Below are positions 8,236 through 64,000 of a stretch of DNA of 64,000 nt, one piece after another. Position 1 is the stretch's first letter, and the number at the start of each line of letters is the position of its first letter. Below the pieces are notes generated by a model. It worked only from the letters and a program-made list of their open reading frames with translations, did no database searches and was not told where the DNA came from. The translations under genes were made by a program, and so were the position numbers. Source of the stretch: Escherichia coli (GTDB lineage Bacteria; Pseudomonadota; Gammaproteobacteria; Enterobacterales; Enterobacteriaceae). Location: assembly GCF_051903065.1 (NCBI RefSeq), contig NZ_CP178438.1. The stretch is one strand, 5' to 3'.

Positions 8236-8284
8236 ATGACGCTCCTGCGTAATGAATCAAAGATAATGCTGTATGATAAAAAAA

Positions 8285-20699: not shown

Positions 20700-20731
20700 A
20701 AAAAAAGGCCCCTGTTGAAATTGCAGGGGCC
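20700..20731 (-). terminator. rho-independent terminator downstream of cutC
   Basis: A-run + ggcccctg/caggggcc hairpin (plus-strand view). Confidence 0.7.
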
Positions 20732-20778
20732 TGGTACGAGCAAGCATCATATTGGGCGACATGATGCAACGGTAAAAA

Positions 20779-21534
<756 letters not shown>

Positions 21535-24054: not shown

Positions 24055-24073
24055 TCGATTTTTCGTGAGAGTG

Positions 24074-24110
24074 AAGCCTGATCAGGGTTAGCCGATCAGG
24101 CTTTTTTATT
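24074..24110 (+). terminator. rho-independent terminator downstream of argS
   Basis: gcctgatc...gatcaggc hairpin followed by TTTTTTATT. Confidence 0.8.
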
Positions 24111-24230
24111 GCCATCTAAATGTATTCTGAAAACGGACATGCCATCGTTTTCTCACTGTTGAGTAAGAGGCCAGAAGCGTAATATCCAGGCCCAGGAAAA
24201 CGATAACGGTTCAATTTAAGGAATACCGCA

Positions 24231-24719
24231 GTGTTTAAATTTCTTGTATTAACATTAGGCATTATCTCTTGCCAGGCTTACGCAGAAGATACGGTTATAG
24301 TAAATGATCATGACATTTCAGCCATCAAAGATTGTTGGCAAAAAAATTCAGATGATGATACTGACATTAACGTGATCAAATCATGTCTGCGACAAGAATA
24401 CAACCTCGTCGATGCGCAATTAAATAAAGCTTATGGTGAAGCTTATCGTTATATAGAACAAGTGCCACGCACAGGTGCAAAAAAACCTGATACCGAACAA
24501 CTTAACTTGCTTAAAAAATCACAACGAGCCTGGCTGGATTTTAGGGACAAAGAATGTGAATTAATCCTTTCAAATGAGGATGTTCAGGATTTAAGTGACC
24601 CTTATTCTGAATCAGAATGGCTATCATGTATGATCATACAGACCAATACGCGAACTCGCCAGTTGCAGCTATACCGTAACTCTGAAGATTTTTATCCAAG
24701 CCCTTTGACAAGAGGATAA
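24231..24719 (+). CDS. yecT: YecT (secreted protein of unknown function)
   Basis: 162-aa AT-rich ORF, GTG start, N-terminal signal peptide. Confidence 0.85.
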   Translation: MFKFLVLTLGIISCQAYAEDTVIVNDHDISAIKDCWQKNSDDDTDINVIKSCLRQEYNLVDAQLNKAYGEAYRYIEQVPRTGAKKPDTEQLNLLKKSQRAWLDFRDKECELILSNEDVQDLSDPYSESEWLSCMIIQTNTRTRQLQLYRNSEDFYPSPLTRG

Positions 24720-24840
24720 TTCACATCTTTTTGGCATGTTTTGTTGCAAGCTATTCCTGATAAATAATTGCAACAAAACATCGAGCCTTTTTCGCTGAGT
24801 TATTAAACATGCTCGCGAGCGCGTAATTTTTATTTGTCCT

Positions 24841-25233
24841 TCAGCGATAATTCACAATCACTTCATTCCGTTGTACCTTTAGCGGTGGAATTAACCGCCC
24901 ACCGCCAGGCACTTCCCAGATAAAGCGCAACGGTTCTGCTGCCGCTATACCGGAAAAGGCCACGGTGGTTCCGCTCTGCCCCTCTAATTCGACACAACGA
25001 GATTGCGAACACAAGCGAACCCGCAGTCCTGCAGGTGTCGGGCCGATAAGCTGATACCGCCACGCCACCAGCGTCATCAATCCTGAAGCAGGTTGTCGAG
25101 TAGAAAGAGGCGCTGACGACATCGACTCACCGCGATGATTTAGCGTAATTCCGACACTACTTGCCTGCCACATCCCCTCCCCGGCGGCTTGCACCAGCAG
25201 CGGAAACAATAATATTGCTAATAAGGTTCTCAT
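24841..25233 (-). CDS. flhE: flagellar protein FlhE
   Basis: 130 aa from MRTLLAILLFPLLVQA (signal peptide); start overlaps flhA stop. Confidence 0.9.
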   Translation of the reverse strand: MRTLLAILLFPLLVQAAGEGMWQASSVGITLNHRGESMSSAPLSTRQPASGLMTLVAWRYQLIGPTPAGLRVRLCSQSRCVELEGQSGTTVAFSGIAAAEPLRFIWEVPGGGRLIPPLKVQRNEVIVNYR

Positions 25234-39524: not shown

Positions 39525-40103
39525 TTAAACAGCCTGTACTCTCTGTTCATCCAGCAATTGTGGGATAATATCGGCAGGATTCTGGGAAAGTTTACGTCTT
39601 TTTACTGCCCGGGATGGCGGTTGACATAAGCTGCAGGCAAAGCTGCCAACAGGCTGGTGAGCGTGGGTAATAAAATTGCCGCCGCAGCAGTTGCAGCTGG
39701 AAAGTTGCAGTAATCCACTTTCAACAAACCGCACCAATGTCCAGGCACGGGTTAATGCCAGCAGCGGTCCTTCTTCTGCTTGCGGGCACTGTTCGAGGTA
39801 TAAACGGTAGGCTTTGATCACCGCATCGACGCCATTACACAAACCGGTTTTCAGTAAAAACTGCCATGCATTACAGAACATCGAAGCATGAACGTTTTGT
39901 TCCCAGGTCATAAACCAGTCGGTTGAAAATGGCAGCATGCCTTTCGGCGGTGGGCTTCCGCGCAGTTCTTTATAAAGTTTTATCAGGCGTCCGCGACTTA
40001 ACTGTGTTTCGCTTTCCAGCATCTGCAAACGAGCGCCCAGGGTGATCAATTCCATTGCCAGCTGAATATCCCGCGCTTCCTGAACAATGCTTTTTTCACT
40101 CAT
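39525..40103 (-). CDS. flhC: flagellar master regulator FlhC
   Basis: 192-aa ORF with Cys4 zinc site. Confidence 0.97.
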
Positions 40104-40105
40104 GA

Positions 40106-40456
40106 TCAGGCCCTTTTCTTGCGCAGCGCTTCTTCAGGCTGATTAACATCATTCAGCAAGCGTGTTGAGAGCATGATGCCGGTATGAATTTGCTGGAGAT
40201 CGTCAACGCGGGAATCTTGCGTCAACTGAGTAATCGTCTGGTGGCTGTCAAAACGGAAGTGACAAACCAGCTGATTGGTTTCTGCCAGCTTAACCATTTG
40301 CGGAAGAGTCAGTGCCGCTAATGTTGTCGCCATTTCTTCATTTATGCCGAGACGAAACATAGCGGACGCTTTGTCCTGAACAATCAGACGCTGTGCAAGT
40401 AGTAAATATGACAAGTTGATGTCATAAATGTGTTTCAGCAACTCGGAGGTATGCAT
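40106..40456 (-). CDS. flhD: flagellar master regulator FlhD
   Basis: 116 aa from [17 protein letters not shown]. Confidence 0.94.
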
Positions 40457-40717
40457 TATTCCCACCCAGAATAACCAACTTTATTTTTATGCGGTTTCAC
40501 CGCACCCCGTGATGTCGCCGGGAAGCCCCGGTAAAAAATAATTAGCATTAGAATAGTTGCGATAAGCTGCAATAAGCAGAGCCACCTTTTTGGTTTAATA
40601 AGTCCTTACAAATAGAAGGGGGTCTTTACACTTATCTAAGATTATTCCTAAATCGACGCAACTGTACTCGTCACTACACGCACATACAACGGAGGGGGGC
40701 TGCGATTTTCATTAATG

Positions 40718-40733
40718 TGTGATGCAGATCACA
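40718..40733. promoter_or_regulatory. CRP binding site in flhDC promoter
   Basis: TGTGATgcagaTCACA, perfect CRP half-sites, about 265 bp upstream of flhD ATG. Confidence 0.8.
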
Positions 40734-41235
40734 CAAATCACTCAATTACTTAACATAAATGTATAAGTCATACTTTTGTTTTGGGTGTATTTCAATCTGT
40801 TAAAAAGTTTTTCGCTACGCTAGCAAGCAAAAATGAAACAGGAATAATCGAAATGGGATGTTGCGCACAGTTAAAATAACTCACCGTAAATAATCATCTG
40901 CTATAAATAATCACTTTCATGCAATACCAGATAAGCTATTTTTAAACAGACACTTACCGCACAACAAACTAATTAAATACAAAGAAAGGCAACAATCAAC
41001 TTAATGTTAATAAAATGTTTTGCATATATTAACCACTTGTTTAATGCGGGGAATCAGTACATTATTTTCTTATAATTACAGTTGAAATCATATGATCACC
41101 GAGAGTGATTGATTAATTGTCTTTACTAATAATCAGACTAATATTTACCTGTTTGACTGAGTTGGGATTGCGTCGTTTCTCCATTAGGAGTAAAGCTTTA
41201 ATGTCACCTGAAGTTCACAGAATAAGGAACAGGTT

Positions 41236-41664
41236 ATGAGCTATAGCAATATTCTTGTCGCCGTTGCGGTTACACCGGAAAGTCAGCAACTGCTGGCAAA
41301 AGCGGTATCTATCGCCAGGCCAGTAAAGGGACACATCAGTTTAATTACTCTCGCTTCCGACCCAGAAATGTACAATCAATTAGCTGCGCCGATGCTTGAA
41401 GATTTACGCAGCGTGATGCAGGAAGAAACGCAAAGCTTTCTTGATAAGTTAATTCAGGATGCGGGGTATCCCGTTGACAATACGTTTATTGCCTACGGTG
41501 AGTTAAGCGAACATATTCTGGAAGTTTGTCGCAAATATCATTTCGATTTGGTGATTTGCGGTAATCACAATCACAGTTTCTTTTCGCGAGCATCCTGCTC
41601 GGCGAAAAGAGTGATTGCCTCAAGTGAGGTCGATGTGCTGTTAGTTCCACTTACGGGAGATTAA
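41236..41664 (+). CDS. uspC: universal stress protein C
   Basis: 142-aa ORF matching UspC/YecG. Confidence 0.93.
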   Translation: MSYSNILVAVAVTPESQQLLAKAVSIARPVKGHISLITLASDPEMYNQLAAPMLEDLRSVMQEETQSFLDKLIQDAGYPVDNTFIAYGELSEHILEVCRKYHFDLVICGNHNHSFFSRASCSAKRVIASSEVDVLLVPLTGD

Positions 41665-41670
41665 CCGCTC

Positions 41671-45023
<3,353 letters not shown>

Positions 45024-47611: not shown

Positions 47612-48406
47612 GGTTCTCTCCAGCTTTAGTGTCGTTTTGTGTAGGGCAAAAACGAATGACATTCGTTAAATTAATCGGAAAACAAAGCATTACCTTTTAA
47701 CTAAAAGATAAGTGACTGTGTTGACATAGTTTTAGCGAGAAATTAATTCTCCATAGGAGAGCAATATCACATCGCAGAATTACAGTGAGAACGTGCATAA
47801 ATTTAGCGGGAAAAGACATAAGGAAAGCCAATTTGTCAGACAAATTGTTGAATGCACAGCAGATTAATCCATAAGATTAGCCTGGAAATCCTTGTTGTCT
47901 TTGGTACCCATGCGGGATGTCTTCTTTGTAACCAGTCAATAGGCCGCATTACCTGGCGTTGAGTTTTTGAAATGGTGTAATAACCGCAACTCAAAGATGT
48001 GGAAAATGCACGTCATTCATTTCGTCATTAATTATCACTGTGCTCATTAATTAACAGAACACGTATAATGAGAGCCATCTCGCAAAAATGAAAAAACGTT
48101 TTATAAAATCATCACTTCATCATGAATTCAAATTCATTGATTAATATCAACAAGATACAAAAAGCACTATCATTAAAATTCATTGCAGTTACATTGATTT
48201 CATCAATGAAATGTAAAAATATATAAACTTGATGATTTAAGCATTTTCTTATACCCGTTCAGACGTTATTCTTATTTCAGATCATCGTCAGAATTGACTC
48301 CACGATCACATTTCGGACCGGCAGAAAGGAATTATTCTGCAAACAGTAATTATGGTGTTTTGATTTATCTTGCACCTCTCCACTTCTGGATATAAGGATA
48401 TTAGGT

Positions 48407-48910
48407 ATGGCAACCGCTGGAATGCTTCTCAAACTCAACTCTCAAATGAACCGCGAGTTTTACGCATCCAATCTCTACCTTCACCTGAGTAACTGGTGTT
48501 CTGAACAGAGTCTGAACGGCACCGCCACTTTCCTTCGCGCCCAGGCACAGAGTAATGTGACCCAAATGATGCGCATGTTTAACTTTATGAAGAGTGTCGG
48601 CGCTACCCCCATCGTTAAAGCCATTGATGTTCCCGGTGAAAAACTGAACTCTCTGGAAGAACTGTTCCAAAAAACGATGGAAGAATACGAGCAACGTTCT
48701 AGTACGTTGGCACAGTTAGCCGATGAAGCGAAAGAACTGAATGATGATTCAACCGTCAATTTCCTGCGCGATCTGGAAAAAGAACAGCAGCATGATGGCC
48801 TGTTGCTGCAAACCATTCTTGATGAAGTGCGCAGTGCGAAACTTGCGGGTATGTGCCCAGTGCAGACCGACCAACATGTTCTGAATGTCGTGTCGCATCA
48901 GCTGCATTGA
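48407..48910 (+). CDS. ftnB: ferritin-like protein FtnB
   Basis: 167-aa ORF, ferritin-like. Confidence 0.93.
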
Positions 48911-48988
48911 TCATACATCGGCGCTAATGCATTGCGCCGATGAAGTTTTTGAGAAACCGCTGCCTCATCTTTTTGAAGCAGCGGTTTT

Positions 48989-49240
48989 TTAATGGGATTC
49001 GCCTTGTGGGGTAAACTTGAGTTCAATCAGCGCGATGGCTTTTTGGATTGCCCGCATGGTGACCGGGTCTGCGGCGGCGGGATGGTTAGTAAAGTCGATA
49101 TTCTTCAGCTGGCTGGACATTTTTTCGCGAACTTCAACGGGCGCGATTACATCGAGAACATCCAGAATTTGTTTGATAACCAACTGGCAAGCAACCACAT
49201 CAGAAACCAGTTCCTGATCGGCATTCAGCGGCTGGGACAT
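48989..49240 (-). CDS. yecJ: YecJ (DUF2766)
   Basis: 83-aa ORF matching YecJ. Confidence 0.88.
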
Positions 49241-49325
49241 CGTAAACTCCTGATAGCATTTTGAAAGCCGTTATAGTAGCGGCTTCACATCTTCAGCGAT
49301 AGTCACATCCACCGTCATCAGGACA

Positions 49326-49354
49326 CAAAAAAACCTGCCGGAGCAGGTTTTTTG
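49326..49354 (-). terminator. rho-independent terminator downstream of azuC
   Basis: acctgc-cgga-gcaggt hairpin flanked by A-run and T-run (potentially bidirectional). Confidence 0.7.
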
Positions 49355-49441
49355 TTATCGGAACATATTGCCTGGCGGTACGTCTTTGAACGTCTTGCAA
49401 TAGTTATTGAACATACTTTTCAGGATTTTGCGCAGTTTCAT
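49355..49441 (-). CDS. azuC: small protein AzuC (28 aa)
   Basis: minus strand translates to MKLRKILKSMFNNYCKTFKDVPPGNMFR; not in the 60-aa ORF track. Confidence 0.85.
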   Translation of the reverse strand: MKLRKILKSMFNNYCKTFKDVPPGNMFR

Positions 49442-49523
49442 CGCGGCACTCCGACCATTTGTTATACAGGTGTTATTGTCTTTGCGCTTATAATATGACA
49501 ACCATCACAAAAATCAATCTTTA

Positions 49524-49539
49524 TGTGATGCAAATCACA
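49524..49539. promoter_or_regulatory. CRP binding site upstream of azuC
   Basis: TGTGATgcaaaTCACA about 85 bp upstream of azuC start. Confidence 0.75.
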
Positions 49540-49702
49540 TAAATACCCCTTTAATGTTATAAAAATGATAATCAAAAAGCAGCCCCCCCTTTCTGACACC
49601 TACAGATGGCGAGAAATAGCGCCTGCCAGGCGTCTTTTCCGGCCATTGTCGCAGCGCTGTAACGCGTAAAATACTGCTTTCTTTTACTCTTCTGGCTGGA
49701 CC

Positions 49703-50026
49703 ATGAGACTTCTGATTCTGACTCTTTCATTAATAACGCTGGCGGGGTGTACGGTTACTCGCCAGGCCCATGTGAGCGAAGTTGACGCGGCAACAGGTAT
49801 TGTACGGTTGGTTTATGACCAGGCTTTTTTGCAGCATGCCCATACCGATCGTTATGTCAGTCGCGGGATCGCCGATCGCGCATGCCAGCAGGAAGGCTAT
49901 ACCCACGCGATCCCCTTTGGTCAGCCAGTAGGCAACTGTGGCCTTTTTGCGGGTTCCTTATGTTTGAATACGGAATTCACTTTGTCATATCAGTGCCATC
50001 ATTCCGCCTTCCCTGTCTTTCTCTAA
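49703..50026 (+). CDS. yecR: lipoprotein YecR
   Basis: 107-aa ORF with lipobox LAGC. Confidence 0.9.
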   Translation: MRLLILTLSLITLAGCTVTRQAHVSEVDAATGIVRLVYDQAFLQHAHTDRYVSRGIADRACQQEGYTHAIPFGQPVGNCGLFAGSLCLNTEFTLSYQCHHSAFPVFL

Positions 50027-50196
50027 ATATTTTAATCAGCGAGGGGATCTTCGCTGATTAAAGAAATAGCGGTAATGCGTTTTATTCCCATTCGTATTTT
50101 TAATAATTGAAGTTTATATTTTACCTTTTGCAAATAATAAAATAACAAATTATAGTGACGCCACAGCAACAAATATAACCTTTGTGGAGCACTATC

Positions 50197-50694
50197 ATGC
50201 TGAAACCAGAAATGATTGAAAAACTTAATGAGCAGATGAACCTGGAACTGTACTCTTCACTGCTTTATCAGCAAATGAGCGCCTGGTGCAGCTATCATAC
50301 CTTCGAAGGTGCTGCCGCGTTCCTGCGCCGTCACGCCCAGGAAGAGATGACGCATATGCAGCGTCTGTTTGATTACCTGACTGATACCGGCAATTTACCG
50401 CGTATTAATACCGTTGAATCTCCGTTTGCTGAATATTCCTCACTTGATGAATTATTCCAGGAAACCTATAAACACGAACAATTAATCACCCAGAAAATTA
50501 ACGAACTGGCTCATGCTGCAATGACCAATCAGGACTACCCAACATTTAATTTCCTGCAGTGGTATGTTTCTGAGCAGCATGAAGAAGAGAAACTGTTCAA
50601 ATCGATTATTGATAAATTAAGCCTGGCAGGCAAAAGCGGCGAAGGTCTGTATTTTATCGACAAAGAACTCTCTACCCTCGACACACAAAACTAA
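50197..50694 (+). CDS. ftnA: ferritin FtnA
   Basis: 165 aa from [13 protein letters not shown]. Confidence 0.95.
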
Positions 50695-50700
50695 TGCTCT

Positions 50701-50728
50701 CCGGCGGCAGGTTTCTGCCGCCGTTTCA
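50701..50728. terminator. terminator hairpin between convergent ftnA and yecH
   Basis: ggcggcag-gttt-ctgccgcc hairpin followed by T-rich tract. Confidence 0.7.
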
Positions 50729-50730
50729 AA

Positions 50731-50970
50731 TCAGTGACGGCAAATCTTACTCTGATCGGTCGAAAAACCGTATTCTGAAGGTATAAATTTGCCTTTTGCT
50801 GCCAGAAACGCTACCAGCTCTCCCGCTGTCATCCCTTCTGCCGAGCAAGTGTGAAAACGTGCCTGTTCACCAAAACGCGCTTTAATCGCAGCTTCCAGAC
50901 TGGCATGCGTATATTGCTCGCCTGATTCAATCATCATATTTAACACTTCATGACCGTGAATAGAGTCCAT
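50731..50970 (-). CDS. yecH: YecH (DUF2492)
   Basis: 79-aa ORF matching YecH. Confidence 0.9.
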   Translation of the reverse strand: MDSIHGHEVLNMMIESGEQYTHASLEAAIKARFGEQARFHTCSAEGMTAGELVAFLAAKGKFIPSEYGFSTDQSKICRH

Positions 50971-51052
50971 CGTTCCTCCTCAAAAAAAGCCTAGCGTAGC
51001 GATTGCCGCTTATGAAGACTTTGCGCCAGCGCAGGACTGAATGCTTTTTATT

Positions 51053-53529: not shown

Positions 53530-54171
53530 TTACGAGTTTGACTGGAAATCTTCAATTATCTTCTGATTGTAATCATCCAGATACTTTTGCAGTTCATCCC
53601 TGTCGATCAGACGTACCAAGGCTGATTCAGCTAACTCTTTCGCAGAGCGAGTGAGTAGGAATTAGTCACAACCATCGCCTCATCACAACCATAGAATGTT
53701 TTAGCAGAGATCACCTGCTGCACCGCCGAGTTACCTACAGAACCAGAATAATTTTTCGCCTGAATAACCATATCCTTACCAAATCGAGTGACGAAGAGAT
53801 CTGCCCCCTGATCTTGCGTTCTCTTGGTTTCTTTGACGTCATAGCCCATAGTCTGGAATACTTCCACAAGGAAATCTTCAAACTGGAAACCGTCCATTGC
53901 ATCAACTAAATACATGGTGACGAATTTGTTAGGGTTAAAATGTTCGAGCCGTGTAGCTAATCTATCAACCAGAATATCAAAATAAATATGTTCGCACACA
54001 GCTAAGTATTTTTTAACTTCATCAAATGAAACTAAAGGAACACCAGGCGTAGCCTCCACTTTTTCATTGAACTCTACTGATGAGAACTCTATTTTATTGC
54101 TCCATATATAGAATAGAAACAATGAAAGATCTGCCCTAAAAGTGGTACCCGCTTCCTCAATCCATGACTTC
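53530..54171 (-). pseudogene. Mrr-like (PD-(D/E)xK) restriction endonuclease pseudogene: 5' truncated by IS1, frameshift near 3' end
   Basis: ORF 53631..54185 has Mrr_cat-like ...GADLFVTRFGKDMVIQAKNYSGSVGNSAVQQV...; its apparent TTG start lies inside the IS1 end; -1 frame past the stop reads AKELAESALVRLIDRDELQKYLDDYNQKIIEDFQSNS. Confidence 0.7.
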
Positions 54172-54226
54172 GGTGATGCTGCCAACTTACTGATTTAGTG
54201 TATGATGGTGTTTTTGAGGTGCTCCA

Positions 54227-54502
54227 GTGGCTTCTGTTTCTATCAGCTGTCCCTCCTGTTCAGCTACTGACGGGGTGGTGCGTAACGGCAAAAGCACCGC
54301 CGGACATCAGCGCTATCTCTGCTCTCACTGCCGTAAAACATGGCAACTGCAGTTCACTTACACCGCTTCTCAACCCGGTACGCACCAGAAAATCATTGAT
54401 ATGGCCATGAATGGCGTTGGATGCCGGGCAACAGCCCGCATTATGGGCGTTGGCCTCAACACGATTTTACGTCACTTAAAAAACTCAGGCCGCAGTCGGT
54501 AA
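54227..54502 (+). CDS. insA: IS1 InsA
   Basis: 91-aa [25 protein letters not shown]... Confidence 0.95.
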
Positions 54503-54924
54503 CCTCGCGCATACAGCCGGGCAGTGACGTCATCGTCTGCGCGGAAATGGACGAACAGTGGGGCTATGTCGGGGCTAAATCGCGCCAGCGCTGGCTGTTT
54601 TACGCGTATGACAGGCTCCGGAAGACGGTTGTTGCGCACGTATTCGGTGAACGCACTATGGCGACGCTGGGGCGTCTTATGAGCCTGCTGTCACCCTTTG
54701 ACGTGGTGATATGGATGACGGATGGCTGGCCGCTGTATGAATCCCGCCTGAAGGGAAAGCTGCACGTAATCAGCAAGCGATATACGCAGCGAATTGAGCG
54801 GCATAACCTGAATCTGAGGCAGCACCTGGCACGGCTGGGACGGAAGTCGCTGTCGTTCTCAAAATCGGTGGAGCTGCATGACAAAGTCATCGGGCATTAT
54901 CTGAACATAAAACACTATCAATAA
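54421..54924 (+). CDS. insB: IS1 InsB (expressed as InsAB' by -1 frameshift at A6C, 54476..54484)
   Basis: 167-aa [19 protein letters not shown]...; slippery TTAAAAAAC present. Confidence 0.93.
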
Positions 54925-55001: not shown

Positions 55002-55364
55002 GTGTATGCCAATCTACTGGCGTGGGATTACGACGGACTGACCCCTCTCAATCGCCCTCAAAATGAAGTGCAGGAAGTTATATTAGCCTCGCTGAAGCTG
55101 CTGGCGGTACAAATTAAACACCTTGAGCCTGATTTCATCATCTTTGCATCTGGAGCCCGGAGAACAGACTACATCATAAAACAGGTGCTTACTGAGCTGG
55201 GCGGCTATGAGACTTCTGCAGTCATTCCGGGGAAGCTATGGGAGTTCAAAACAGGTAATGCAATCTGTTTCAGAATTGCCCATCCAAGGGCTATGCGCGG
55301 ACACAAGAAGTACAGAGATGAGGTGATTGCACGAATTAAGCAACTTTGTACTCAGGGTGGCTAG
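55002..55364 (+). CDS. hypothetical protein, possibly 5'-truncated gene remnant
   Basis: 120-aa ORF from GTG; frame stays open back to the IS1 junction (54942), so likely a C-terminal fragment. Confidence 0.4.
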   Translation: MYANLLAWDYDGLTPLNRPQNEVQEVILASLKLLAVQIKHLEPDFIIFASGARRTDYIIKQVLTELGGYETSAVIPGKLWEFKTGNAICFRIAHPRAMRGHKKYRDEVIARIKQLCTQGG

Positions 55365-55938: not shown

Positions 55939-58900
55939 TTATGCCAATTCAGACTCAAACGCTGCATCATTCGCTTCAGCCTCTGCGCCATCAATTAATG
56001 CCAAGACTCGGTCAAGAAAGCGTTGCGCTTCGTATACATCTGTTGCTTGCCGCAGATAATGAGGTATTCGTTCAACAAACTCGGAACGTGATAAAGGCTG
56101 ATGTTCCAGCAAAGCCTCAAGCATTGCGGGCCGCAACAAACGACGATCAGCATCAACATTAGGAAGCTCAACCTCAATGACATGTGTGGCAAAATACTTA
56201 AGTTGCTCCTTAAGCCCCAAATTGGGCATAAGAGAATCAATTGAGTCAGACGCCACTTCAGCGCTTGACTCAATCGTTTCTACATATTCATAGGAAGGTA
56301 CAACAACGTCTGGAGCCAATGTTTTAAGCTCATGGAGTTTACGGATAATCGGAGATAGAACCTCATCAGGATTACTGAACCAATCAGTGGACCAAATGCG
56401 GCTAATTCTCCAACCCAAACGCTCCAGAACCTCTTGACGCAAACGGTCACGATCACGAGCAGATTTAGCTGAGTGATAAGCCGCACCATCACACTCTATG
56501 CCCATTAAGTAACGGCCAGGACAACCTGGATCTTTCACAGCTAGATCAATAAAGAATCCTGCAACCCCTACCTGAGGTTCACACTCAAACCCAGCGTGAT
56601 TGAGTGCTTCCATTACAGCAACCTCAAAGTCACTATCTGGAGCCCTGCCGGTATGCGTTGTGAGGGAATCTAGTTTGCCACTTTCGGCAAACTGTAAAAA
56701 ACCTTTCAACGAAATAACACCAAGTTTACTGATTTCACTCGTCAATACATCTTCAGAACGCATTGAACTAAACACATGCATCCGTTTTTTTGATCGAGTG
56801 AAAAGCACATTCAAGCGACGCCAGCCAACATCGGAATTGATAGGTCCAAAGCGTTGATAAACCTTTCCACCATGCTCAGAAGGTCCATAGGTAAAGGAAA
56901 TAAAGATTACATCACGCTCATCCCCTTGAACGTTCTCAAGGTTTTTCACAAAAAGTGGCTCTTCCATGGCATATAAGCCATCGATTGCATCGTTAAATTC
57001 AGGGCGATTTCGGCGCAATTCATCGATAGCGCGCTCAATTTGATCGCGTTGCTTGGAACTCATGGCCACTACCCCGAGTGACTCACCCGGCCGGTGTTGC
57101 GCATGATGAAGTACGGCCTCAGCAACTGCTTGGGCTTCTTCAATATTGTGTTGATTGGAGAACCGACCTTTTGACACATAGGTAAATTTAATCCCATACT
57201 CTGGAGACTCAGCATTTGGGGAAGGGAATATCACCAAATCACTGTTATAAAAATGGCGGTTAGAGTATGCAATCAACTTTTCATGTCGTGAACGATAGTG
57301 CCAACGCAAACGTCTCATAGGAAACAGTGGCAAAGCAGCATCCAAAATGCTGTCAGTATCACTTAAAGCCGCGGCATCATCGTCATCTTCTCCGTCGGCA
57401 CTTCGATCAAAGAAACTGGTTGGTGGTAGCTGTTTCGGGTCACCAACGACCACTAGTTGCTTGCCCCTCGCGATGACACCCAATGCATCCTCTGGCTTCA
57501 CCTGAGACGCTTCGTCCATCACCACCAGATCAAATTCCATTCGTCCAGGTTCTAGGTAATGAGCTGCTGACATTGGCCCCATCATGAAACAAGGTTTAAT
57601 TGCAACCAGCGCATTACATGCACGGTTAACCAATTGCCTAATTGGAATATGTCTGGTTTTTTTACCCAACTCATTTTTGATCAAAGCTAGTTCTGTATAT
57701 TCACTTTTCTTACCACCAGAATTCCCTTCTGGTATATTTCGGCAAGCAATTTTTGCTGCAATCCGCTGACGTTGTAATTCAATCAGTTTTTTATCGTAAT
57801 CTTTAAATGACTTCTGCAAAGCATTGCGCTGTGAGCCGGAAACTCTCATCAATTCAGGGTGGATGTGAATAACCTCCCGCGCCAGCTGGTCATGAATTGC
57901 TAATGCTAAACCCAATTCAACTTTTTCAATCGGGAGCGAGCCCGCAAGTACAGCACTCCAGATTCGCTGCAATCCATTTTCATGCATCTGCTCGTAACAA
58001 CGAATAAAGTTAACCCACCCGTTCAACCAACGGGGTTGCTGTATTGCTCTTTCGTTGCGCTCGATTAATGTATTAAGAGAACCATCAGTCGACTTGAGCC
58101 ACTGACTCCGCTCTAACTTTGTTTCTAGCGCATATAACTCAGCATTTTTAATCTGTTCATTCCATTTCGAAACTATTTCCCCACCATCACGACATAGTAA
58201 ATCGTAATCACTACCACTAGCCAAATGTCTGATCTGGGTAGCCAAGGATACGCAATTTATCTTATCAACCAGTTGCTCGGCAAAATTCAGCGTGTCGTTA
58301 ATAGTGTCTAACGTCAGTTGATTATTTTTATACGCACCGCAAGCCAATGGGGTTAATTGTAAAAACGCCCCTAACTGTAACGAGTCATTTTCAAGGGATA
58401 TCTGAAGATCGTTTATGTTTTGCAAAATCTCGGAGGAATGAGTCATCTGCTCTAATGATATATCTGGATTGATAAACCATCCCTGCAAGGCAATGAGAGT
58501 ATTCCGCACCTGTCGGTAAGATTGCATCAATACACCTTGCTCACCTAACCAAGATGCATGTTCTTCCAACAAGCTAGAAATACGCGGTAATAACTTAGCC
58601 TCGTGCTCGACCCGTTTAACCAAAGTCATTAATCTTGAGCTAATCTGCGATTTCTCGATTAAATGCACACCTTTGATAATCTCACCATCTAGGTTAAATA
58701 ATCCAGAGCCTATCGCAACTCGCTTTCCAAAACCTATCCCGTAACAAGCTCGGACCTTCTTGTACCAATCACGCAATAACATGAGTTGTTCACAGTCGGT
58801 GTCCAACCCTCGGAATGCATTACCAAGTTGATTACCAAAGTCACTTTGTTCAAACCGTTGTAACAGCTCCGAATACTTGAGCAAATCAGCTGAGCAGCGT

Positions 58901-61686
58901 TTTAACTCAGCAAACTTAGTGTCAGGCTTACGAGATTGCGCCATGAGCAGTGCCTTGGCACTACGCCAATCACTCTTAAACCATGCAAATAATCCCCCTT
59001 GCTGGATAACAGCAACGGCATGCGCGAGCATCTCTTGGGAAGGCAACTGGTCCAATTGATACAAAGTAGATAGACCATCTCTTAAAGGACGCAATGTTTC
59101 GATTTGACACATTAAGTCGCGCAATACTGCATCGATATCATCATCATCAAAAAGAGGATCTCGAACTCTAATAAGCTCAGTCGGTAAAGCACCCAGAATC
59201 GACAACAACTCAGAGCAGAATAGCAATCCAGCTTGCGAATCATCGATATACGAAGCAATACCATCTGGCAAAGCATTTTTGAAATCGTTTAATTGCGCAT
59301 AAATAGATGATAACTCATCATGAATTGATTGGATGGATTCAAGCCACCTGACCAAATCACGTAAAGTGAAATCCTCTGCTGCACCATATTTTTCCAGCTC
59401 TTCACGAGGAAAGTCACACGATTGTCCTTGTTCTAAAAGTCGTAGCTTTTGAGGCTCGATAACCTGGCTCAAGGCCACATAATGACCTTGTAGCAACTCG
59501 AACCTATCTAAATAGTGACGCACCCGTGCAATGGCATCGGGTGAATCTAGCTCACTAAGTGCTGGGAAATGCTCTGAACCACACAACACTGGAAGATTCG
59601 ACTGATCTTCTACCAATTGCTCAATATATTGAAGCGTATTAAGGCTTTCGCCTTCTAACGCCCACTTATCTACATATTCTTGATAGCTATGTTGAAAGTC
59701 GATAATTGATGTCTGCCAAGTTTGTAGCAAATCGACTATACGAGCGCTGTCAAACAATTGAATTTGTGTGTTATTCACACCGCTCCAAGGGTGCTCATAT
59801 ATTTCTGCATTAGCCCCCACCTGCTCACGAACCTCTTTGTAGATGCGGCTAAACTCTACTATTTGGTCACGCAGCCGTAATTGGGTCACTTTATCCAACT
59901 GCTTCCCGGAAAGGTTTTCGATATGAAGTGCTGTTGCATCAATATCTAATTTGTGACGATAACGGGTTGCACCACTCAAAATCTGATGGATCGTTTTGCC
60001 TGTTTGCGCCCATTGGTTATTGATCAATGCGGCATATTCATTGAGCTGCTGCTTAAGATCTTCATAACGCAAAATCTGAGCATCAATCTCTTCCATAGTA
60101 GGCATGGTCGCCTGACTCACCAAGCGAGCATTAATATCATCCAGCACCTTGCGCTTATGAGTTTTATGACTGTGCAACTCTAAGCAAAATTGACCTAGCC
60201 CCGCACGATCCAAGCGACGTTTGACGACCTCCAGTGCAGCCATCTTCTCTGCCACAAACAGGACTTTCTTACCGTTGAGCAGAGCTGCTGCAATCAAGTT
60301 GGTGATCGTTTGTGATTTGCCACTACCAGGAGGGCCCTCAATGACTAAGTTTTGACCACGGATAGCATCGATCAACGCACTGTGCTGCGAGCTATCCGCA
60401 TCATCGATTAGTGGAACCTTGTCATGAATATCAGGGTAACTATCGATGCAGTACTCATGCTGACCGAAGCCACCAGGTAAGCCGGAATTCTCTTGACCAC
60501 AGCTCTGACTGGTGAAAAAGCGACGAATTACTTCATGAGACAATATATTGCGCTTGTCACAAGGCCAGCGGGCAGGATCGAGGTCAAGATACATCATCAT
60601 CTTGCCAAAATTGAGCAAGCTAAGTGCACCATAACGTTTCACAGACCATTTAGGTTTGTGCTGCTCTACAACCTTCTTCACCGAAGCAAAATAAGACTCT
60701 GGAGTTTCCTCTTCATTGAACAAAGGAAGAGCGAGGCCAAAGTCAGCCTGAAGTTTTTCCTTCAAAGAGAGATTGGGCAAAATATCTTCACCCGTGTAAT
60801 AAAGTTGAAACTTGTAAAGACCATCCTTCGGATCTAATTTTCCTCGTTCACATCTCACCGGAATTGTAAATAACGGTGCATAACGTGCCTTTTCAGAGGA
60901 ATCGCTTTCATACCACTCAAGGAACCCTAACGCCAAATACAAGATGTTGGCGCCACTCTCCTCCAAAGCAGTTTGAGCCTTACCATAGATGGCGCGCAAA
61001 CAAGCTTCCAGTTCATTTGGATAAAGCAGAGCCTGTATCCGATTATCGTCATGAGAGGGATTGGAAGAAGATATACTAATCTCATTCCCAGCCTTTGCCT
61101 GTCGTTCAAAATCCTCAAGCCCTTCATAGCCTGCTAAGCAGCACGCCTCCTTCAACGCTGACAAAGCTATACCTTGATTAACGTATTCAGAACGAATCCC
61201 TGTTAATTTTCCATTCTGGCCTTGGGCATATTGCAAGATAAACTGATGGGCTTTTTCCAGCAACTCTCTATCTGAATCAGAAACAACCGTTTTATGGCTA
61301 TCTGGTAAATCAAAATCTGTACGGATTCCTAAGACGTGCGCCCAATCCTTAGCGCTAGGATGAGCTCTTAACTGTATATCTTTACCATCTGGCCCAACTT
61401 TGAGATAGCCATGCTCTAACAGCTGCGCTCTAGTTGGATCGGGCACAGGAGCAAATTCCATCGGGATTTCCGAGCAAAGGGTTTCATAAAGCTGTTCTGG
61501 TAATTCATCAACAATACGTAGTGAAGACCCTTTTTGAGTGATAGGGAAATTCAAAAGTCGATTTCGAGACGTAAGGTCCAATAACTTCTTACGCATAGCC
61601 TCGAGGGAAGTCAGAATAAAATCTGAGCCTCCTTGATTGAGTTCCTCTGCTGTAGAGGTATCTACAGTCGACATAATGTTCTCCAT
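55939..61686 (-). CDS. giant helicase-nuclease (1915 aa): DUF4011-like N-terminus, Upf1-like SF1 helicase with ~940-aa insertion, C-terminal Vsr/DUF559-like nuclease domain
   Basis: LLDLTSRNRLLNF and LALGFLEWYE near N-terminus; Walker A GPPGSGKS (res 451-458, nt 60313..60336); DEAS (res 1391-1394, nt 57505..57516); VVVGDPKQLPP; GDERDVIFIS; GWRRLNVLFTRSKKRMHVF; C-terminal FFIDLA...IECDGAAYHSAKSARDRDRLRQEVLERLGWRISRIW (nt about 56377..56628). Confidence 0.85.
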   Translation of the reverse strand: MENIMSTVDTSTAEELNQGGSDFILTSLEAMRKKLLDLTSRNRLLNFPITQKGSSLRIVDELPEQLYETLCSEIPMEFAPVPDPTRAQLLEHGYLKVGPDGKDIQLRAHPSAKDWAHVLGIRTDFDLPDSHKTVVSDSDRELLEKAHQFILQYAQGQNGKLTGIRSEYVNQGIALSALKEACCLAGYEGLEDFERQAKAGNEISISSSNPSHDDNRIQALLYPNELEACLRAIYGKAQTALEESGANILYLALGFLEWYESDSSEKARYAPLFTIPVRCERGKLDPKDGLYKFQLYYTGEDILPNLSLKEKLQADFGLALPLFNEEETPESYFASVKKVVEQHKPKWSVKRYGALSLLNFGKMMMYLDLDPARWPCDKRNILSHEVIRRFFTSQSCGQENSGLPGGFGQHEYCIDSYPDIHDKVPLIDDADSSQHSALIDAIRGQNLVIEGPPGSGKSQTITNLIAAALLNGKKVLFVAEKMAALEVVKRRLDRAGLGQFCLELHSHKTHKRKVLDDINARLVSQATMPTMEEIDAQILRYEDLKQQLNEYAALINNQWAQTGKTIHQILSGATRYRHKLDIDATALHIENLSGKQLDKVTQLRLRDQIVEFSRIYKEVREQVGANAEIYEHPWSGVNNTQIQLFDSARIVDLLQTWQTSIIDFQHSYQEYVDKWALEGESLNTLQYIEQLVEDQSNLPVLCGSEHFPALSELDSPDAIARVRHYLDRFELLQGHYVALSQVIEPQKLRLLEQGQSCDFPREELEKYGAAEDFTLRDLVRWLESIQSIHDELSSIYAQLNDFKNALPDGIASYIDDSQAGLLFCSELLSILGALPTELIRVRDPLFDDDDIDAVLRDLMCQIETLRPLRDGLSTLYQLDQLPSQEMLAHAVAVIQQGGLFAWFKSDWRSAKALLMAQSRKPDTKFAELKRCSADLLKYSELLQRFEQSDFGNQLGNAFRGLDTDCEQLMLLRDWYKKVRACYGIGFGKRVAIGSGLFNLDGEIIKGVHLIEKSQISSRLMTLVKRVEHEAKLLPRISSLLEEHASWLGEQGVLMQSYRQVRNTLIALQGWFINPDISLEQMTHSSEILQNINDLQISLENDSLQLGAFLQLTPLACGAYKNNQLTLDTINDTLNFAEQLVDKINCVSLATQIRHLASGSDYDLLCRDGGEIVSKWNEQIKNAELYALETKLERSQWLKSTDGSLNTLIERNERAIQQPRWLNGWVNFIRCYEQMHENGLQRIWSAVLAGSLPIEKVELGLALAIHDQLAREVIHIHPELMRVSGSQRNALQKSFKDYDKKLIELQRQRIAAKIACRNIPEGNSGGKKSEYTELALIKNELGKKTRHIPIRQLVNRACNALVAIKPCFMMGPMSAAHYLEPGRMEFDLVVMDEASQVKPEDALGVIARGKQLVVVGDPKQLPPTSFFDRSADGEDDDDAAALSDTDSILDAALPLFPMRRLRWHYRSRHEKLIAYSNRHFYNSDLVIFPSPNAESPEYGIKFTYVSKGRFSNQHNIEEAQAVAEAVLHHAQHRPGESLGVVAMSSKQRDQIERAIDELRRNRPEFNDAIDGLYAMEEPLFVKNLENVQGDERDVIFISFTYGPSEHGGKVYQRFGPINSDVGWRRLNVLFTRSKKRMHVFSSMRSEDVLTSEISKLGVISLKGFLQFAESGKLDSLTTHTGRAPDSDFEVAVMEALNHAGFECEPQVGVAGFFIDLAVKDPGCPGRYLMGIECDGAAYHSAKSARDRDRLRQEVLERLGWRISRIWSTDWFSNPDEVLSPIIRKLHELKTLAPDVVVPSYEYVETIESSAEVASDSIDSLMPNLGLKEQLKYFATHVIEVELPNVDADRRLLRPAMLEALLEHQPLSRSEFVERIPHYLRQATDVYEAQRFLDRVLALIDGAEAEANDAAFESELA

Positions 61687-61860
61687 TTCTTAGGGTCCAC
61701 AAGTAAAACGTTTTATGCTGATGCATCACAAAAAGACCGCAGTAAACTGCTGCAAAGAAGAGGAGATTTTTAGTCTCCCCTTCTTTATCAATCAGATCAT
61801 ACAATCAACTTAACGCCCATTAGTTGATAGCAGCCAAATTTCATAAACAGATTCAATCCG

Positions 61861-63903
61861 TTATTGCTGAATTTGATTGGATAGTAAGACCTGCAACATA
61901 TCTTGTTGATGCACAGCTATCTCATCTTCCAGCCAACGACCTTTATCTTTCATCAGCCGAATCATAGCAAGCAATTTAAGACTATCAGTCTGGTTATTGG
62001 CAAGGCTTGCTTCAAAGTGCTCCTGCTTCTGTTGCGGCTGGAAGTTACTCAAGCGCGAGTTCTTGCTGTGGCTGATAAGGCAAAGGTTGCCAAACGAATG
62101 GAGTGCACTCTGCTCAACCGGTTTATAGCCATCCATCGGATGCTGGGGTGAGAAGTGCTCCACCGAGCTGCGGAAAGTGAACTCAAAGGAGCCAGCAACT
62201 TTGTCGCTATTCCGATCTCGTACCCACAGCAGATAGTCGAGGAAGTTGAAGACAAAGTTGTTCTCGATATGACCGAAGCGAAGTTTGGATGTAATCACCT
62301 TGTGCCAACTCTCATCCACATTGATGGCGGGCAACAGGGCGTTATCAAGGTAGAGCATCTGGTAATAGGAAGCCCCTTCACCAGGCGCCAAAAAGCGCTG
62401 GAAGACAAAGCGGCGAGCCTGACTCTCCAGATAGGACAGATAAGCCCCGGCATCCACCGGTTGATCAGGGTGACAATTGTCGAACAGATATCTCAGTGCA
62501 CCATTCAGCCAATGTTTGTAAACCAGGGTCGGGGTCGACACATGAAACGCCGACAGCAACATCAGGACCCGCCGGTTAACACCAGAGAAACCATTCTCAT
62601 TTTCATCCTTGTCAAAGGTATTGATGTAACTGACGCTCTTTTCCGAATACCAGTGCAGCCGCTTCAGACTCCAACTATCCTTGCCATCGGCAAACTCGCG
62701 CTTGATGATGAACTGATCAAACAGATACTTGCTCTTTAACAGGCCATAGATAAAACGCTGAACTGCCGCTACTGGATCCGGTTGCCTTATCACTCGCAGC
62801 TCAAACTGATCGACCAGTTGTTTATCATCAAGCGGCACCCCCTCCGTATCACCCGGGTCGCGGCTCACGAGTCGCAGCACATGGAGCAAGAAGTTGGAGA
62901 AGTTGATGACGCTGTTAAAGCGCTCGGAGCCTGCGCTCTCCTCCTCCACCGTCTGCTCACCATCAAGCTTGTCATCCTGCAAAATGGCCAACAAGGTGCG
63001 CCCTTGGCTACCGGCAGCTGCACGGCTTTTATCGGCAGCGTCGGCCGTGTTTGGGGATCCTAGCAGATCAAGCAGATGGGCAAAGTCACGGGGCACAAAC
63101 TGACCCCAGTCGCTCTCACCAAACAGACGGTGGCGCTCTTGCGGGGTAAAGCCGTACTGGATATAGCGCTCCATATTGGCGCAGGCATCCCATACCCGGG
63201 TCAGGATATGAATACTTTGGCGACGATGCTCTTCCTCGGGTATCTGGTTCAGCGTCTCCATCAGCCGCGCCTTGATCACTTCATGCTTTTCCAACTGCTC
63301 GCCGCGATTGTTCATCGCCTCGAAGAAGTGATTGAGATCGGTATCCTTGGGTACTTCGATACGAGAGATCTGCACATGCTTGAAGAGGTAGTCGCAAAAG
63401 GTCGTCAGTTTAGCCCCTACCAAACCAAGATCCGCCATTGCCTTGCCAATCAGCTCAAAACCGTTCACCAAACCTTCATTGAAGGTACTCCCCCGCAAAT
63501 CGTAGGGGGCAACACCCTGCCATAAGCGCTCGAAGGTATGGCTCGATATCGGGCGACTCTCAAAAGCGAGGTTGATGGTCTGATACCAGCTCATATCCAC
63601 CGAATCTATCGCGTGATGTTTGAGCCAATTGGCCAGCAGAGAGAGGGTAGTAAAGCGCTGCTGGCCATCGATTACCTCGAAACTGCCATCGTCCCGGGCA
63701 AACACCACCAGGGTGCCGATATAGTAGGTTTGCGGCCCCTTACCACTGACCAATTTTTGCTGATAATCCAGCACATCCTGCAGCAGCTGGGTGATCTCTC
63801 CCTCACCCCAGGCATAGTTGCGCTGGTACATGGGCACCAGATAGCGGGCGCGATCTTCAAGCAGTGCACGAATGGAAAAGGGGCGAACGCCTGCATCATT
63901 CAT
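61861..63903 (-). CDS. DUF262 (ParB-like NTPase/nuclease) + DUF1524 (His-Me finger) protein, GmrSD-like putative type IV restriction enzyme
   Basis: N-terminal [16 protein letters not shown] and [12 protein letters not shown] (res 79-83); C-terminal [12 protein letters not shown]...[18 protein letters not shown]. Confidence 0.85.
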
Positions 63904-64000
63904 AATATTTCATCTCCCGAAACAGCCCGACCAGCTCATCTTCGGCACCATTGCGATTGTTCTTGTTCTCTCGACTGCTCATGCTAGGCAAAGGGAAGCC
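63896..64000 (-). CDS. 3' end of an upstream ORF running off the window (partial)
   Basis: minus-strand frame open from 64000 to TGA at 63898..63896 (...[28 protein letters not shown]); ATGAATGA overlap with the DUF262 start. Confidence 0.4.

What the first reader, a model, noticed from the sequence alone, without database searches (positions are those of the whole stretch)
61861..63903. GmrSD-like DUF262/DUF1524 protein next to the helicase-nuclease
The 680-aa ORF has the DGQQR motif of the DUF262 (ParB-like) domain and a C-terminal His-Me finger (VEH...NL...N) typical of DUF1524. This two-domain fusion characterises GmrSD/SspE/BrxU-type modification-dependent nucleases. Its co-orientation with the helicase-nuclease 174 bp downstream makes this a multi-system defence island, or possibly one cooperative system.
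Basis: partly seen in the sequence, partly recalled or inferred. Interest (0 to 1): 0.75.

Follow-up and report, generated by a model that had tools for sequence, protein, structure and literature searches.

The report
Known two-gene GmrSD restriction enzyme, half-seen
[quoted passage not shown] Its obligatory partner gene is cut off by the window edge, and the neighbouring Hhe helicase-nuclease is a separate, already known defence gene.

Summary
ORF 61861..63903 (-) encodes 680 aa with Pfam GmrSD_N/DUF262 (DGQQR at aa 79-83) and GmrSD_C/DUF1524 (His-Me finger E582-H583...N606...N615...N620).

It is not a stand-alone GmrSD. The window ends 97 nt upstream of its start. In a 100%-identical E. 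coli genome a 483-aa DUF262+DUF7834 gene lies directly upstream and overlaps it by 8 bp.

The pair is already characterised. The ORF is 678/680 identical to GmrSD2 of 'GmrSD_ECOR17', and the partner is 482/483 identical to GmrS1 (Nat Commun 2025, PMC12373910). In that work:
- both genes are required;
- the pair restricts T2, T6 and T4Δip2Δip3, but not hmC or unmodified T4;
- T4 Ip3 blocks it;
- E582A/H583A kills it.

The same E. coli pair is listed as a V. cholerae TgvAB homologue (PMC11411939, Table S5).

The downstream 1911-aa gene is Hhe, a known single-gene system. Deleting hhe in ECOR17 did not relieve the Ip3-sensitive defence. Six of eight GmrSD2 lineages lack Hhe, and 31 of about 32 Hhe lineages lack the pair. 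'Multi-system island' therefore holds and 'one cooperative system' does not.

Novelty: already known. Interest: low.

The parts
61861..63903 (-). gmrSD2 (tgvB-type) gene, 680 aa: DUF262 NTPase/sensor domain, helical linker, DUF1524 His-Me nuclease
   Evidence: ORF. Pfam GmrSD_N aa 12-215 and GmrSD_C aa 555-671. 678/680 identical to ECOR17 GmrSD2, APT18_07335. RefSeq WP_032636150.1 in the 100%-identical genome is listed in cluster CLS_003 of PMC12373910.
63896..64000 (-). 3' end (last 34 codons plus stop) of gmrS1 (tgvA-type), the obligatory partner. The rest lies beyond the window edge.
   Evidence: The translation of 63896..64000 equals the C-terminus of the 483/484-aa DUF262+DUF7834 protein of L001. 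The two genes overlap by 8 bp (ATGAATGA). The partner is 482/483 identical to ECOR17 GmrS1.
63259..63870 (-). DUF262 / GmrSD_N domain of GmrSD2, including the QR motif (aa 27-28), DGQQR (aa 79-83 = 63655..63669) and [12 protein letters not shown] (aa 193-204)
   Evidence: motif residues invariant in 12 homologues.
61891..62241 (-). DUF1524 / GmrSD_C His-Me finger nuclease domain. The catalytic core E582-H583...N606...N615...N620 lies at 62044..62163.
   Evidence: E582A/H583A abolishes defence in the ECOR17 protein (PMC12373910).
61675..61860 (-). AT-rich spacer (GC 0.376) between gmrSD2 and hhe, with two terminator-like hairpins at about 61737..61785
   Evidence: Sequence. Terminator-like site at 61755..61737. 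14-bp hairpin, region MFE z = -3.4. GC. Function as a terminator is inferred, not shown.
55939..61674 (-). hhe, a neighbouring and separate single-gene anti-phage system (DUF4011, SF1 helicase, Vsr/MTES_1575-like nuclease). Not part of the GmrS1/GmrSD2 enzyme.
   Evidence: PADLOC Hhe model matched end to end, 4302.8 bits. NCBIfam NF042953 Hhe_antiphage, 2735.9 bits against a cutoff of 2000. Described as a single-gene system in 10.1101/2024.10.10.617714.

Best explanation
The ORF encodes GmrSD2, the nuclease-bearing subunit of a two-gene type IV (modification-dependent) restriction enzyme of the TgvAB / GmrSD_ECOR17 type.

The operon is gmrS1 (DUF262 + DUF7834, 483 aa, almost entirely outside the window) followed by gmrSD2 (DUF262 + linker + DUF1524 His-Me nuclease). 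The two genes overlap by 8 bp.

Shown by others for proteins 99.7-99.8% identical:
- Neither gene protects alone.
- Together, at leaky expression, they restrict T-even phages carrying glucosyl-hydroxymethylcytosine DNA (T2, T6, T4 lacking Ip3). They do not restrict hmC-only or unmodified T4.
- The injected T4 protein Ip3 blocks them.
- E582A/H583A in the nuclease abolishes defence.
- Co-overexpression is toxic.

Inferred:
- The two paralogous DUF262 (ParB-like NTPase) domains form a hetero-oligomer that senses glucosylated hmC DNA.
- NTP binding or hydrolysis by that assembly licenses the single His-Me finger of GmrSD2 to cut the incoming DNA.

The downstream Hhe helicase-nuclease is an independent defence gene that travels in the same mobile block. 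That block derives from a type I R-M operon in which both were embedded.
For: Domains and motifs.

Partner gene and the 8-bp overlap: seen in a 100%-identical genome and conserved in 8 lineages down to 63% identity.

Identity to the characterised ECOR17 proteins: 678/680 and 482/483. The exact RefSeq accessions WP_032636150.1 and WP_000443937.1 are listed in clusters CLS_003 and CLS_004 of that paper.

Published phenotypes: PMC12373910.

TgvAB link:
- The E. coli pair is listed as a TgvAB homologue in PMC11411939 Table S5.
- Co-linear homology to V. cholerae TgvB (24% over about 400 aa, E 8e-21) and TgvA (25%, E 1e-21).
- V. cholerae TgvA also has GmrSD_N + DUF7834.
- TgvAB genetics show both genes are needed, as are the DGQQR motifs of both proteins and H571/N602 of TgvB.

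Independence from Hhe:
- ECOR17 Δhhe does not restore T4ΔipIII infection (PMC9391042).
- The two-gene clone is sufficient.
- 6 of 8 GmrSD2 lineages lack Hhe.
- Only 1 of about 32 species-level Hhe loci with at least 4 kb of upstream sequence has the pair.
- GC is 0.57/0.52 for the pair against 0.44 for hhe.
- The spacer carries terminator-like hairpins.
Against: - No experiment was done on this exact allele. It differs from ECOR17 GmrSD2 at T168A and R348C and from GmrS1 at R294S. None of these is at a conserved motif, but an effect cannot be excluded.
- The partner gene is not in the window. Its presence here is inferred from the 105 nt that are in the window and from a genome 100% identical over 61600..64000.
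- In E. coli the sequence just upstream of gmrS1 is an IS remnant, so the promoter is unknown.
- A physical GmrS1-GmrSD2 complex and its NTP-dependent mechanism have not been shown for any family member.
- My AlphaFold models were too poor to add anything.
Confidence: 0.93

Rival explanations
1. One reading: a stand-alone single-chain GmrSD/BrxU/SspE-like enzyme that works by itself.
For: The two-domain DUF262+DUF1524 architecture equals that of single-chain GmrSD. The best PADLOC hits are HEC-06, SspE and mREase_IV, and HEC-06 is reported to act alone.
Against: - The PADLOC matches cover mainly aa 10-104, not the whole profile.
- A DUF262+DUF7834 partner with an 8-bp overlap is present in all 8 lineages examined.
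- GmrSD2 alone, even overexpressed, gives no protection, and truncating gmrS1 abolishes defence (PMC12373910).
- The same holds for TgvB alone.
Confidence: 0.03
2. GmrS1, GmrSD2 and Hhe form one cooperative three-gene system. The DUF262 proteins sense the phage DNA and the helicase-nuclease executes, or the reverse.
For: - The genes are co-oriented with a short spacer.
- The order gmrS1-gmrSD2-hhe recurs in E. coli, on Klebsiella plasmids and in two Aeromonas species. Hhe has diverged to 79-84% there, so the linkage is older than a recent clonal event.
- In Aeromonas all three sit between hsdS and hsdR.
Against: - The two DUF262 genes alone suffice in a lab strain.
- ECOR17 Δhhe keeps the Ip3-sensitive defence.
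- Hhe is used and annotated as a single-gene system.
- Six of eight GmrSD2 lineages lack Hhe.
- Hhe relatives at 88% (Edwardsiella) and about 30 more distant ones lack the pair.
- GC composition differs and the spacer has terminator-like hairpins.
- IS1 removes hhe and leaves the pair on some plasmids.
Confidence: 0.04
3. The locus in this particular genome is an inactive relic: not expressed because of the IS remnant upstream, or disabled by its private substitutions.
For: - IS fragments lie about 25 bp upstream of gmrS1 in the identical genome.
- Some E. coli genomes carry truncated copies annotated only as 'HNH endonuclease family protein' (H44, H46, H59, H61).
- The alleles differ from ECOR17 at 2 + 1 residues.
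Against: - Both reading frames are intact.
- All catalytic and NTPase motifs are intact.
- The block is at least 99% identical in 275 complete E. coli genomes, and ECOR17's native copy is functional (Tn-seq hit).
Confidence: 0.06

Closest known systems
GmrSD_ECOR17 (GmrS1 APT18_07330 + GmrSD2 APT18_07335), E. coli ECOR17; Nat Commun 2025, PMC12373910
   Same: Essentially the same proteins: 678/680 and 482/483 identical. Same gene order, same 8-bp overlap, same E582/H583 catalytic pair. The RefSeq accessions of this locus are listed in that paper's clusters CLS_003/CLS_004.
   Different: Three substitutions in total (T168A and R348C in GmrSD2, R294S in GmrS1). The phenotype of this allele has not been tested.
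TgvAB (VC1767/VC1766) of Vibrio cholerae VPI-2; PMC11411939 and bioRxiv 10.1101/2024.04.05.588314
   Same: - Same two-gene architecture: TgvA is DUF262+DUF7834, TgvB is DUF262+DUF1524.
- Same 8-bp overlap.
- Both genes are required.
- Both target glucosylated hmC T-even phages.
- Embedded between hsdS and hsdR in relatives of this locus.
- This E. coli pair is in their homologue table.
   Different: Only 24-25% identity over the first ~400 residues. In this genome the pair sits beside, not inside, a type I R-M operon and is followed by hhe.
Single-chain GmrSD enzymes: Eco94GmrSD / GmrSD_CT596, BrxU (= HEC-05, GmrSD_ECOR21), HEC-06, SspE
   Same: DUF262 with DGQQR, a helical linker, and a DUF1524 His-Me nuclease. 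They are modification-dependent, and GmrSD is specific for glc-hmC.
   Different: - Those enzymes act as single proteins. This one needs a second DUF262 protein.
- Sequence similarity is limited to the DUF262 core: PDB SspE E 9e-4 and partial PADLOC matches.
- No BREX or ssp/dnd genes lie nearby.
- The inhibitor is different: Ip3 rather than Ip1 or Ip2.
Hhe (PADLOC PDLC02194; NCBIfam NF042953), for the neighbouring gene
   Same: Full-length match above the curated cutoff.
   Different: It is a neighbour, not a component. Its frequent position next to this pair in Aeromonas, E. coli and Klebsiella plasmids is not described in the papers I read.

Membership tests
GmrSD family (type IV restriction, DUF262+DUF1524) | N-terminal DUF262/ParB-like domain with the DGQQR motif | tested here: met
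   Pfam GmrSD_N E 4.7e-29. DGQQR at aa 79-83, invariant in homologues.
GmrSD family (type IV restriction, DUF262+DUF1524) | C-terminal DUF1524 His-Me finger with a catalytic His and Asn residues | tested here: met
   Pfam GmrSD_C E 4.4e-11. E582-H583, N606, N615 and N620 are invariant.
GmrSD family (type IV restriction, DUF262+DUF1524) | Restriction depends on modified (glc-hmC) DNA | not testable with these tools
   Published for the 99.7%-identical ECOR17 enzyme: only g-hmC T4 is restricted (PMC12373910).
Two-gene TgvAB / GmrS1-GmrSD2 type | An upstream partner with DUF262 but no nuclease (DUF262+DUF7834) | tested here: met
   Only the last 34 codons lie in the window. The full 483-aa gene is in a 100%-identical genome. 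Pfam GmrSD_N + DUF7834, E 2e-76. V. cholerae TgvA has the same two domains.
Two-gene TgvAB / GmrS1-GmrSD2 type | Overlapping reading frames (8 bp), which suggest translational coupling | tested here: met
   ATGAATGA overlap in the window. The same 8-bp overlap is in 7 other lineages and is reported for tgvAB.
Two-gene TgvAB / GmrS1-GmrSD2 type | Sequence homology to the characterised members | tested here: met
   678/680 and 482/483 identical to ECOR17 GmrSD2 and GmrS1. 24-25% co-linear identity to V. cholerae TgvB and TgvA, E 8e-21 and 1e-21. Listed in Table S5 of PMC11411939.
Two-gene TgvAB / GmrS1-GmrSD2 type | Embedded in a type I R-M operon (hsdM-hsdS-A-B-hsdR) | tested here: inconclusive
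   Met in Klebsiella, Morganella and Aeromonas relatives. In this genome the pair lies next to a type I R-M operon but is separated from it by IS remnants. The TgvAB authors also found most homologues outside T1RM, so embedding is typical rather than defining.
Two-gene TgvAB / GmrS1-GmrSD2 type | Both genes are required for defence | not testable with these tools
   Published for ECOR17 and V. cholerae.
Single-chain GmrSD / BrxU / HEC-06 / SspE | Acts as a single protein; SspE is linked to sspABCD and BrxU to BREX | tested here: not met
   A partner is conserved in every lineage. No ssp, dnd or BREX genes lie within 12 kb in the identical genome. PADLOC profile matches are partial. Published genetics show GmrSD2 alone is inactive.
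Hhe as a component of the same system | Obligate co-occurrence and mutual dependence | tested here: not met
   Hhe is absent from 6 of 8 GmrSD2 lineages. The pair is absent from about 31 of 32 Hhe loci. ECOR17 Δhhe shows no effect.

The most novel reading that the evidence does not exclude
The gmrS1-gmrSD2-hhe order is a selected functional pairing rather than chance island packing. It is kept in E. coli, on Klebsiella IncF plasmids and in two Aeromonas species. Hhe has diverged to 79-84% in those Aeromonas species, while the pair stays at 91-97%. In Aeromonas all three genes are nested inside a type I R-M operon. One possible logic: Hhe covers T-even phages that escape the glc-hmC-specific enzyme through Ip3 or loss of glucosylation. 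Another: read-through from the pair tunes hhe expression.
Probability: 0.1. Interest if true: 0.4.

Novelty: already known. Interest (0 to 1): 0.12.

Why it matters
It matters mainly as a correction. A sequence-only reader, and also PADLOC 2.0 and NCBIfam (which return only partial HEC-06/SspE hits or nothing), would file this gene as a generic single-protein GmrSD. In fact it is one half of a two-subunit type IV restriction enzyme whose target (glucosyl-hmC T-even DNA) and phage inhibitor (T4 Ip3) are published.

The block is common: 275 of 5,426 complete E. coli genomes, and 187 plasmid records, mostly Klebsiella conjugative plasmids, carry at least 80% of the gmrS1-gmrSD2-hhe block. Correct annotation is therefore relevant to T-even-like phage host range and to phage therapy. 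No new biology is revealed.

Tried and rejected
- AlphaFold2 of GmrSD2 with a 12-sequence alignment gave mean pLDDT 46.8. For GmrS1 with 8 sequences it gave 54.2, with only the DUF262 domain confident and DUF7834 below 50. Both are too poor for fold searches, so none were run.
- A PDB sequence search found only weak DUF262-core hits (unnamed DUF262 proteins, SspE) for GmrSD2 and nothing for GmrS1. No solved TgvAB-type structure turned up.
- NCBIfam has no model for either DUF262 protein.
- I first assumed Hhe came from Vassallo et al. 2022. That paper does not contain it. From memory it is from Gao et al. 2020, which I could not read here.
- Co-occurrence within E. coli is uninformative, because all 275 genomes carry one block that is at least 99% identical.
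- Plasmids that carry the pair alone turned out, in the one record inspected (H72), to reflect a secondary loss of hhe with an IS1 next to the pair, not an ancestral arrangement.
- No tRNA gene flanks the island inside the window.
- The promoter scan found nothing convincing for hhe in the spacer.

Full report
**Observation.** The window carries an ATG-initiated ORF at 61861..63903 on the minus strand, 680 aa. Pfam finds GmrSD_N (PF03235, formerly DUF262) at aa 12-215 (E 4.7e-29) and GmrSD_C (PF07510, formerly DUF1524) at aa 555-671 (E 4.4e-11). DGQQR lies at aa 79-83. The His-Me finger reads V581-E582-H583 ... G605-N606-L607 ... N615 ... N620. All of these residues are invariant in an alignment of 12 homologues reaching down to 63% identity.

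**What the window hides.** The window is E. coli chromosome (tyrP, yecA, IS1). Megablast of 61600..64000 finds the segment in 275 of 5,426 complete E. coli genomes, all but one at 99% identity or more, and RefSeq annotates two 'DUF262 domain-containing proteins' under it. In strain 23CRST027, which is 100% identical over the query, a 483-aa gene (WP_000443937.1) lies immediately upstream of the 680-aa gene (WP_032636150.1) and overlaps it by 8 bp. The window ends 97 nt upstream of the ORF's start. Positions 63896..64000 encode exactly the last 34 residues of that partner, and the junction reads ATGAATGA. The partner has its own DGQQR motif and the Pfam architecture GmrSD_N (E 4e-28) + DUF7834 (E 2e-76), with no nuclease domain. 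The two proteins are paralogous only in the DUF262 domain (24% over 205 aa).

**Identity with a characterised enzyme.**
- Silas et al. [quoted passage not shown]
- Neither gene protects alone, even when overexpressed, and truncating GmrS1 abolishes defence.
- The uninduced two-gene construct restricts T2, T6 and T4Δip2Δip3, but not Ip3-encoding T4.
- Ip3 alone restores plaquing.
- An E582A/H583A nuclease mutant is dead.
- Co-induction of both genes is toxic.
- Hypo-modified T4 (hmC-only or unmodified C) is not restricted; among the variants tested, only GmrSD_ECOR21 restricted it.
- I rebuilt both protein sequences from their Supplementary Dataset 5. GmrSD2 differs from the window ORF at 2 of 680 residues (T168A, R348C). 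GmrS1 differs from the partner at 1 of 483 (R294S).
- The exact RefSeq accessions of this locus appear in their clusters CLS_003 and CLS_004, which the paper equates with GmrSD_ECOR17.
- The ECOR17 Tn-seq hit is a 2,043-nt 'DUF262 domain-containing protein' gene.

**Relation to TgvAB.**
- Two groups described TgvAB (VC1767/VC1766) in V. cholerae VPI-2.
- TgvA has DUF262 only, TgvB has DUF262+DUF1524, and the ORFs overlap by 8 bp.
- The pair is embedded as hsdM-hsdS-tgvA-tgvB-hsdR.
- Both genes are required, and the system targets glucosylated 5hmC.
- Mutations in the DUF262 motifs of either protein, or H571A/N602A in TgvB, abolish defence.
- Table S5 of PMC11411939 lists E. coli (FORC31, BSG22) and Klebsiella plasmid pairs whose sequences match this locus's proteins over the ~400 residues shown, apart from a few substitutions, as MacSyFinder TgvAB hits.
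- Using the first 399 residues given there, TgvB aligns co-linearly with the window ORF (24% identity, aa 9-399, E 8e-21). TgvA aligns with the partner (25%, E 1e-21).
- V. cholerae TgvA also scores GmrSD_N + DUF7834.
- The locus is therefore a distant sequence relative, but an exact architectural match, of TgvAB.

**Conservation of the pair.**
- Full-length homologues are abundant.
- In eight lineages the DUF262+DUF7834 gene is always directly upstream. In the seven whose junctions were read the overlap is the same 8 bp.
- The lineages, by identity to the window ORF:
  - E. coli and Klebsiella plasmids, about 100%
  - Aeromonas caviae, 91%
  - Vogesella, 86%
  - Enterobacter, 76%
  - Zobellella, 75%
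  - Paraburkholderia, 67%
  - Klebsiella chromosome, 63%
  - Morganella, 63%
- In Klebsiella and Morganella the arrangement is hsdM-hsdS-A-B-hsdR-YgjP, exactly the VPI-2 layout.

**The helicase-nuclease neighbour.**
- The downstream gene matches the PADLOC Hhe model end to end (4302.8 bits) and NCBIfam 'anti-phage protein Hhe' above its cutoff. RefSeq places its start at 61674.
- Hhe is treated in the literature as a single-gene system.
- Three lines of evidence argue against a joint system:
  1. Genetics. The two DUF262 genes suffice in a lab strain. Srikant et al. deleted hhe (as well as T1RM, T3RM, abi2, dsr1 and cas3) in ECOR17 without restoring infection by Ip3-less T4 (PMC9391042).
  2. 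Distribution. Hhe follows the pair in only 2 of the 8 lineages above. In a scan of one genome per species for Hhe relatives I found 56 loci, about 32 of them with at least 4 kb upstream. Only Aeromonas australiensis has the pair upstream. Edwardsiella Hhe, at 88% identity, has none.
  3. Sequence. GC is 0.568 and 0.519 for gmrS1 and gmrSD2, 0.376 for the spacer and 0.443 for hhe. The spacer folds into a 14-bp hairpin followed by a second terminator-like element.
- On some Klebsiella plasmids hhe is missing from the match just inside its start codon, and in the one record inspected an IS1 lies next to the intact pair.

**Origin of the block.**
- In Aeromonas caviae the order is hsdM-hsdS-gmrS1-gmrSD2-hhe-hsdR.
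- Klebsiella IncFIB/IncFII conjugative plasmids carry gmrS1-gmrSD2-hhe at 99.8% identity. Directly after hhe comes a 54-codon remnant that is 83% identical to the Aeromonas hsdR N-terminus. Another E. coli contig shows the same remnant.
- The block therefore looks like a fragment of a type I R-M operon in which both systems were embedded. It later landed beside a different type I R-M system.
- Aeromonas Hhe is 79% identical to the E. coli protein while GmrSD2 is 91% identical. The linkage is thus not merely recent, which leaves a small chance of selected complementarity.

**Mechanism.**
- Shown for near-identical proteins:
  - two-subunit requirement
  - dependence on the His-Me residues
  - glc-hmC specificity
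  - inhibition by Ip3
- Shown for TgvAB: the DGQQR-type motifs of both subunits are needed.
- Inferred from the GmrSD/BrxU/SspE literature quoted:
  - the DUF262 domains bind or hydrolyse NTP and sense the modification
  - a GmrS1-GmrSD2 hetero-oligomer licenses the single nuclease
- No structure exists, and my AF2 models were uninformative.

**Verdict.** The feature is already known and experimentally characterised, so interest is low.

Noticed in passing
window 53631..54185 (-), 54227..54924 (+), 55002..55364 (+): Between yecA and hhe lie three items. The first is a truncated Mrr-like restriction endonuclease gene (PADLOC ZorD Mrr-like nuclease region, E 3.6e-14; RefSeq marks it a pseudogene missing its N-terminus). 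The second is an IS1 element. The third is a truncated hypothetical gene. Together they look like debris marking the edge of the island.
   Followed up: partly
L010 7831..7992; L043 1918..2079 (absent from the window): Directly after hhe, Klebsiella plasmids and another E. coli contig keep a 54-codon remnant 81-83% identical to the N-terminus of Aeromonas hsdR. This implies that gmrS1-gmrSD2-hhe was excised from a type I R-M operon of the Aeromonas type. In the window this remnant has been replaced (homology to the plasmids stops at about 55925).
   Followed up: partly
L001 20495..21178; L009 17637..20127: The adjacent type I R-M operon has its own embedded genes between hsdS and hsdR. One is a YecA/YgfB-family protein. 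On the Klebsiella plasmid there is also a 615-aa cold-shock-domain protein. These could be further embedded defence candidates.
   Followed up: no
E. coli genomes H44, H46, H59, H61: In several pig/ETEC and donkey isolates the gene under the gmrSD2 match is annotated only as 'HNH endonuclease family protein'. This suggests that gmrSD2 is truncated or frameshifted in some lineages.
   Followed up: no
L009 8248..8945: On some Klebsiella plasmids the match to the window stops about 10 bp inside the hhe start codon. In the one record inspected (pDA33144-220) an IS1 lies next to the pair, hhe is gone, and gmrS1-gmrSD2 and the spacer are intact.
   Followed up: partly
window 61674 vs 61686: The first in-frame ATG of hhe (61686) adds 4 residues (MENI) upstream of the start that RefSeq and the PADLOC profile use (61674, preceded by GGAG). 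The true spacer is probably 186 bp rather than 174 bp.
   Followed up: partly
L025 15609..25419: In Mangrovitalea sediminis hhe is followed by a type I R-M operon (hsdM-hsdS-...-hsdR) that contains a distant DUF262 gene. This is a second, independent case of Hhe, a DUF262 protein and T1RM in one cluster, but in a different order.
   Followed up: no
window 8001-9000, 20001-21000, 24001-25000, 40001-42000, 48001-51000: Low-GC patches (0.40-0.44 against a window mean of 0.50) lie elsewhere in the window. They may be further horizontally acquired segments. I did not examine them.
   Followed up: no
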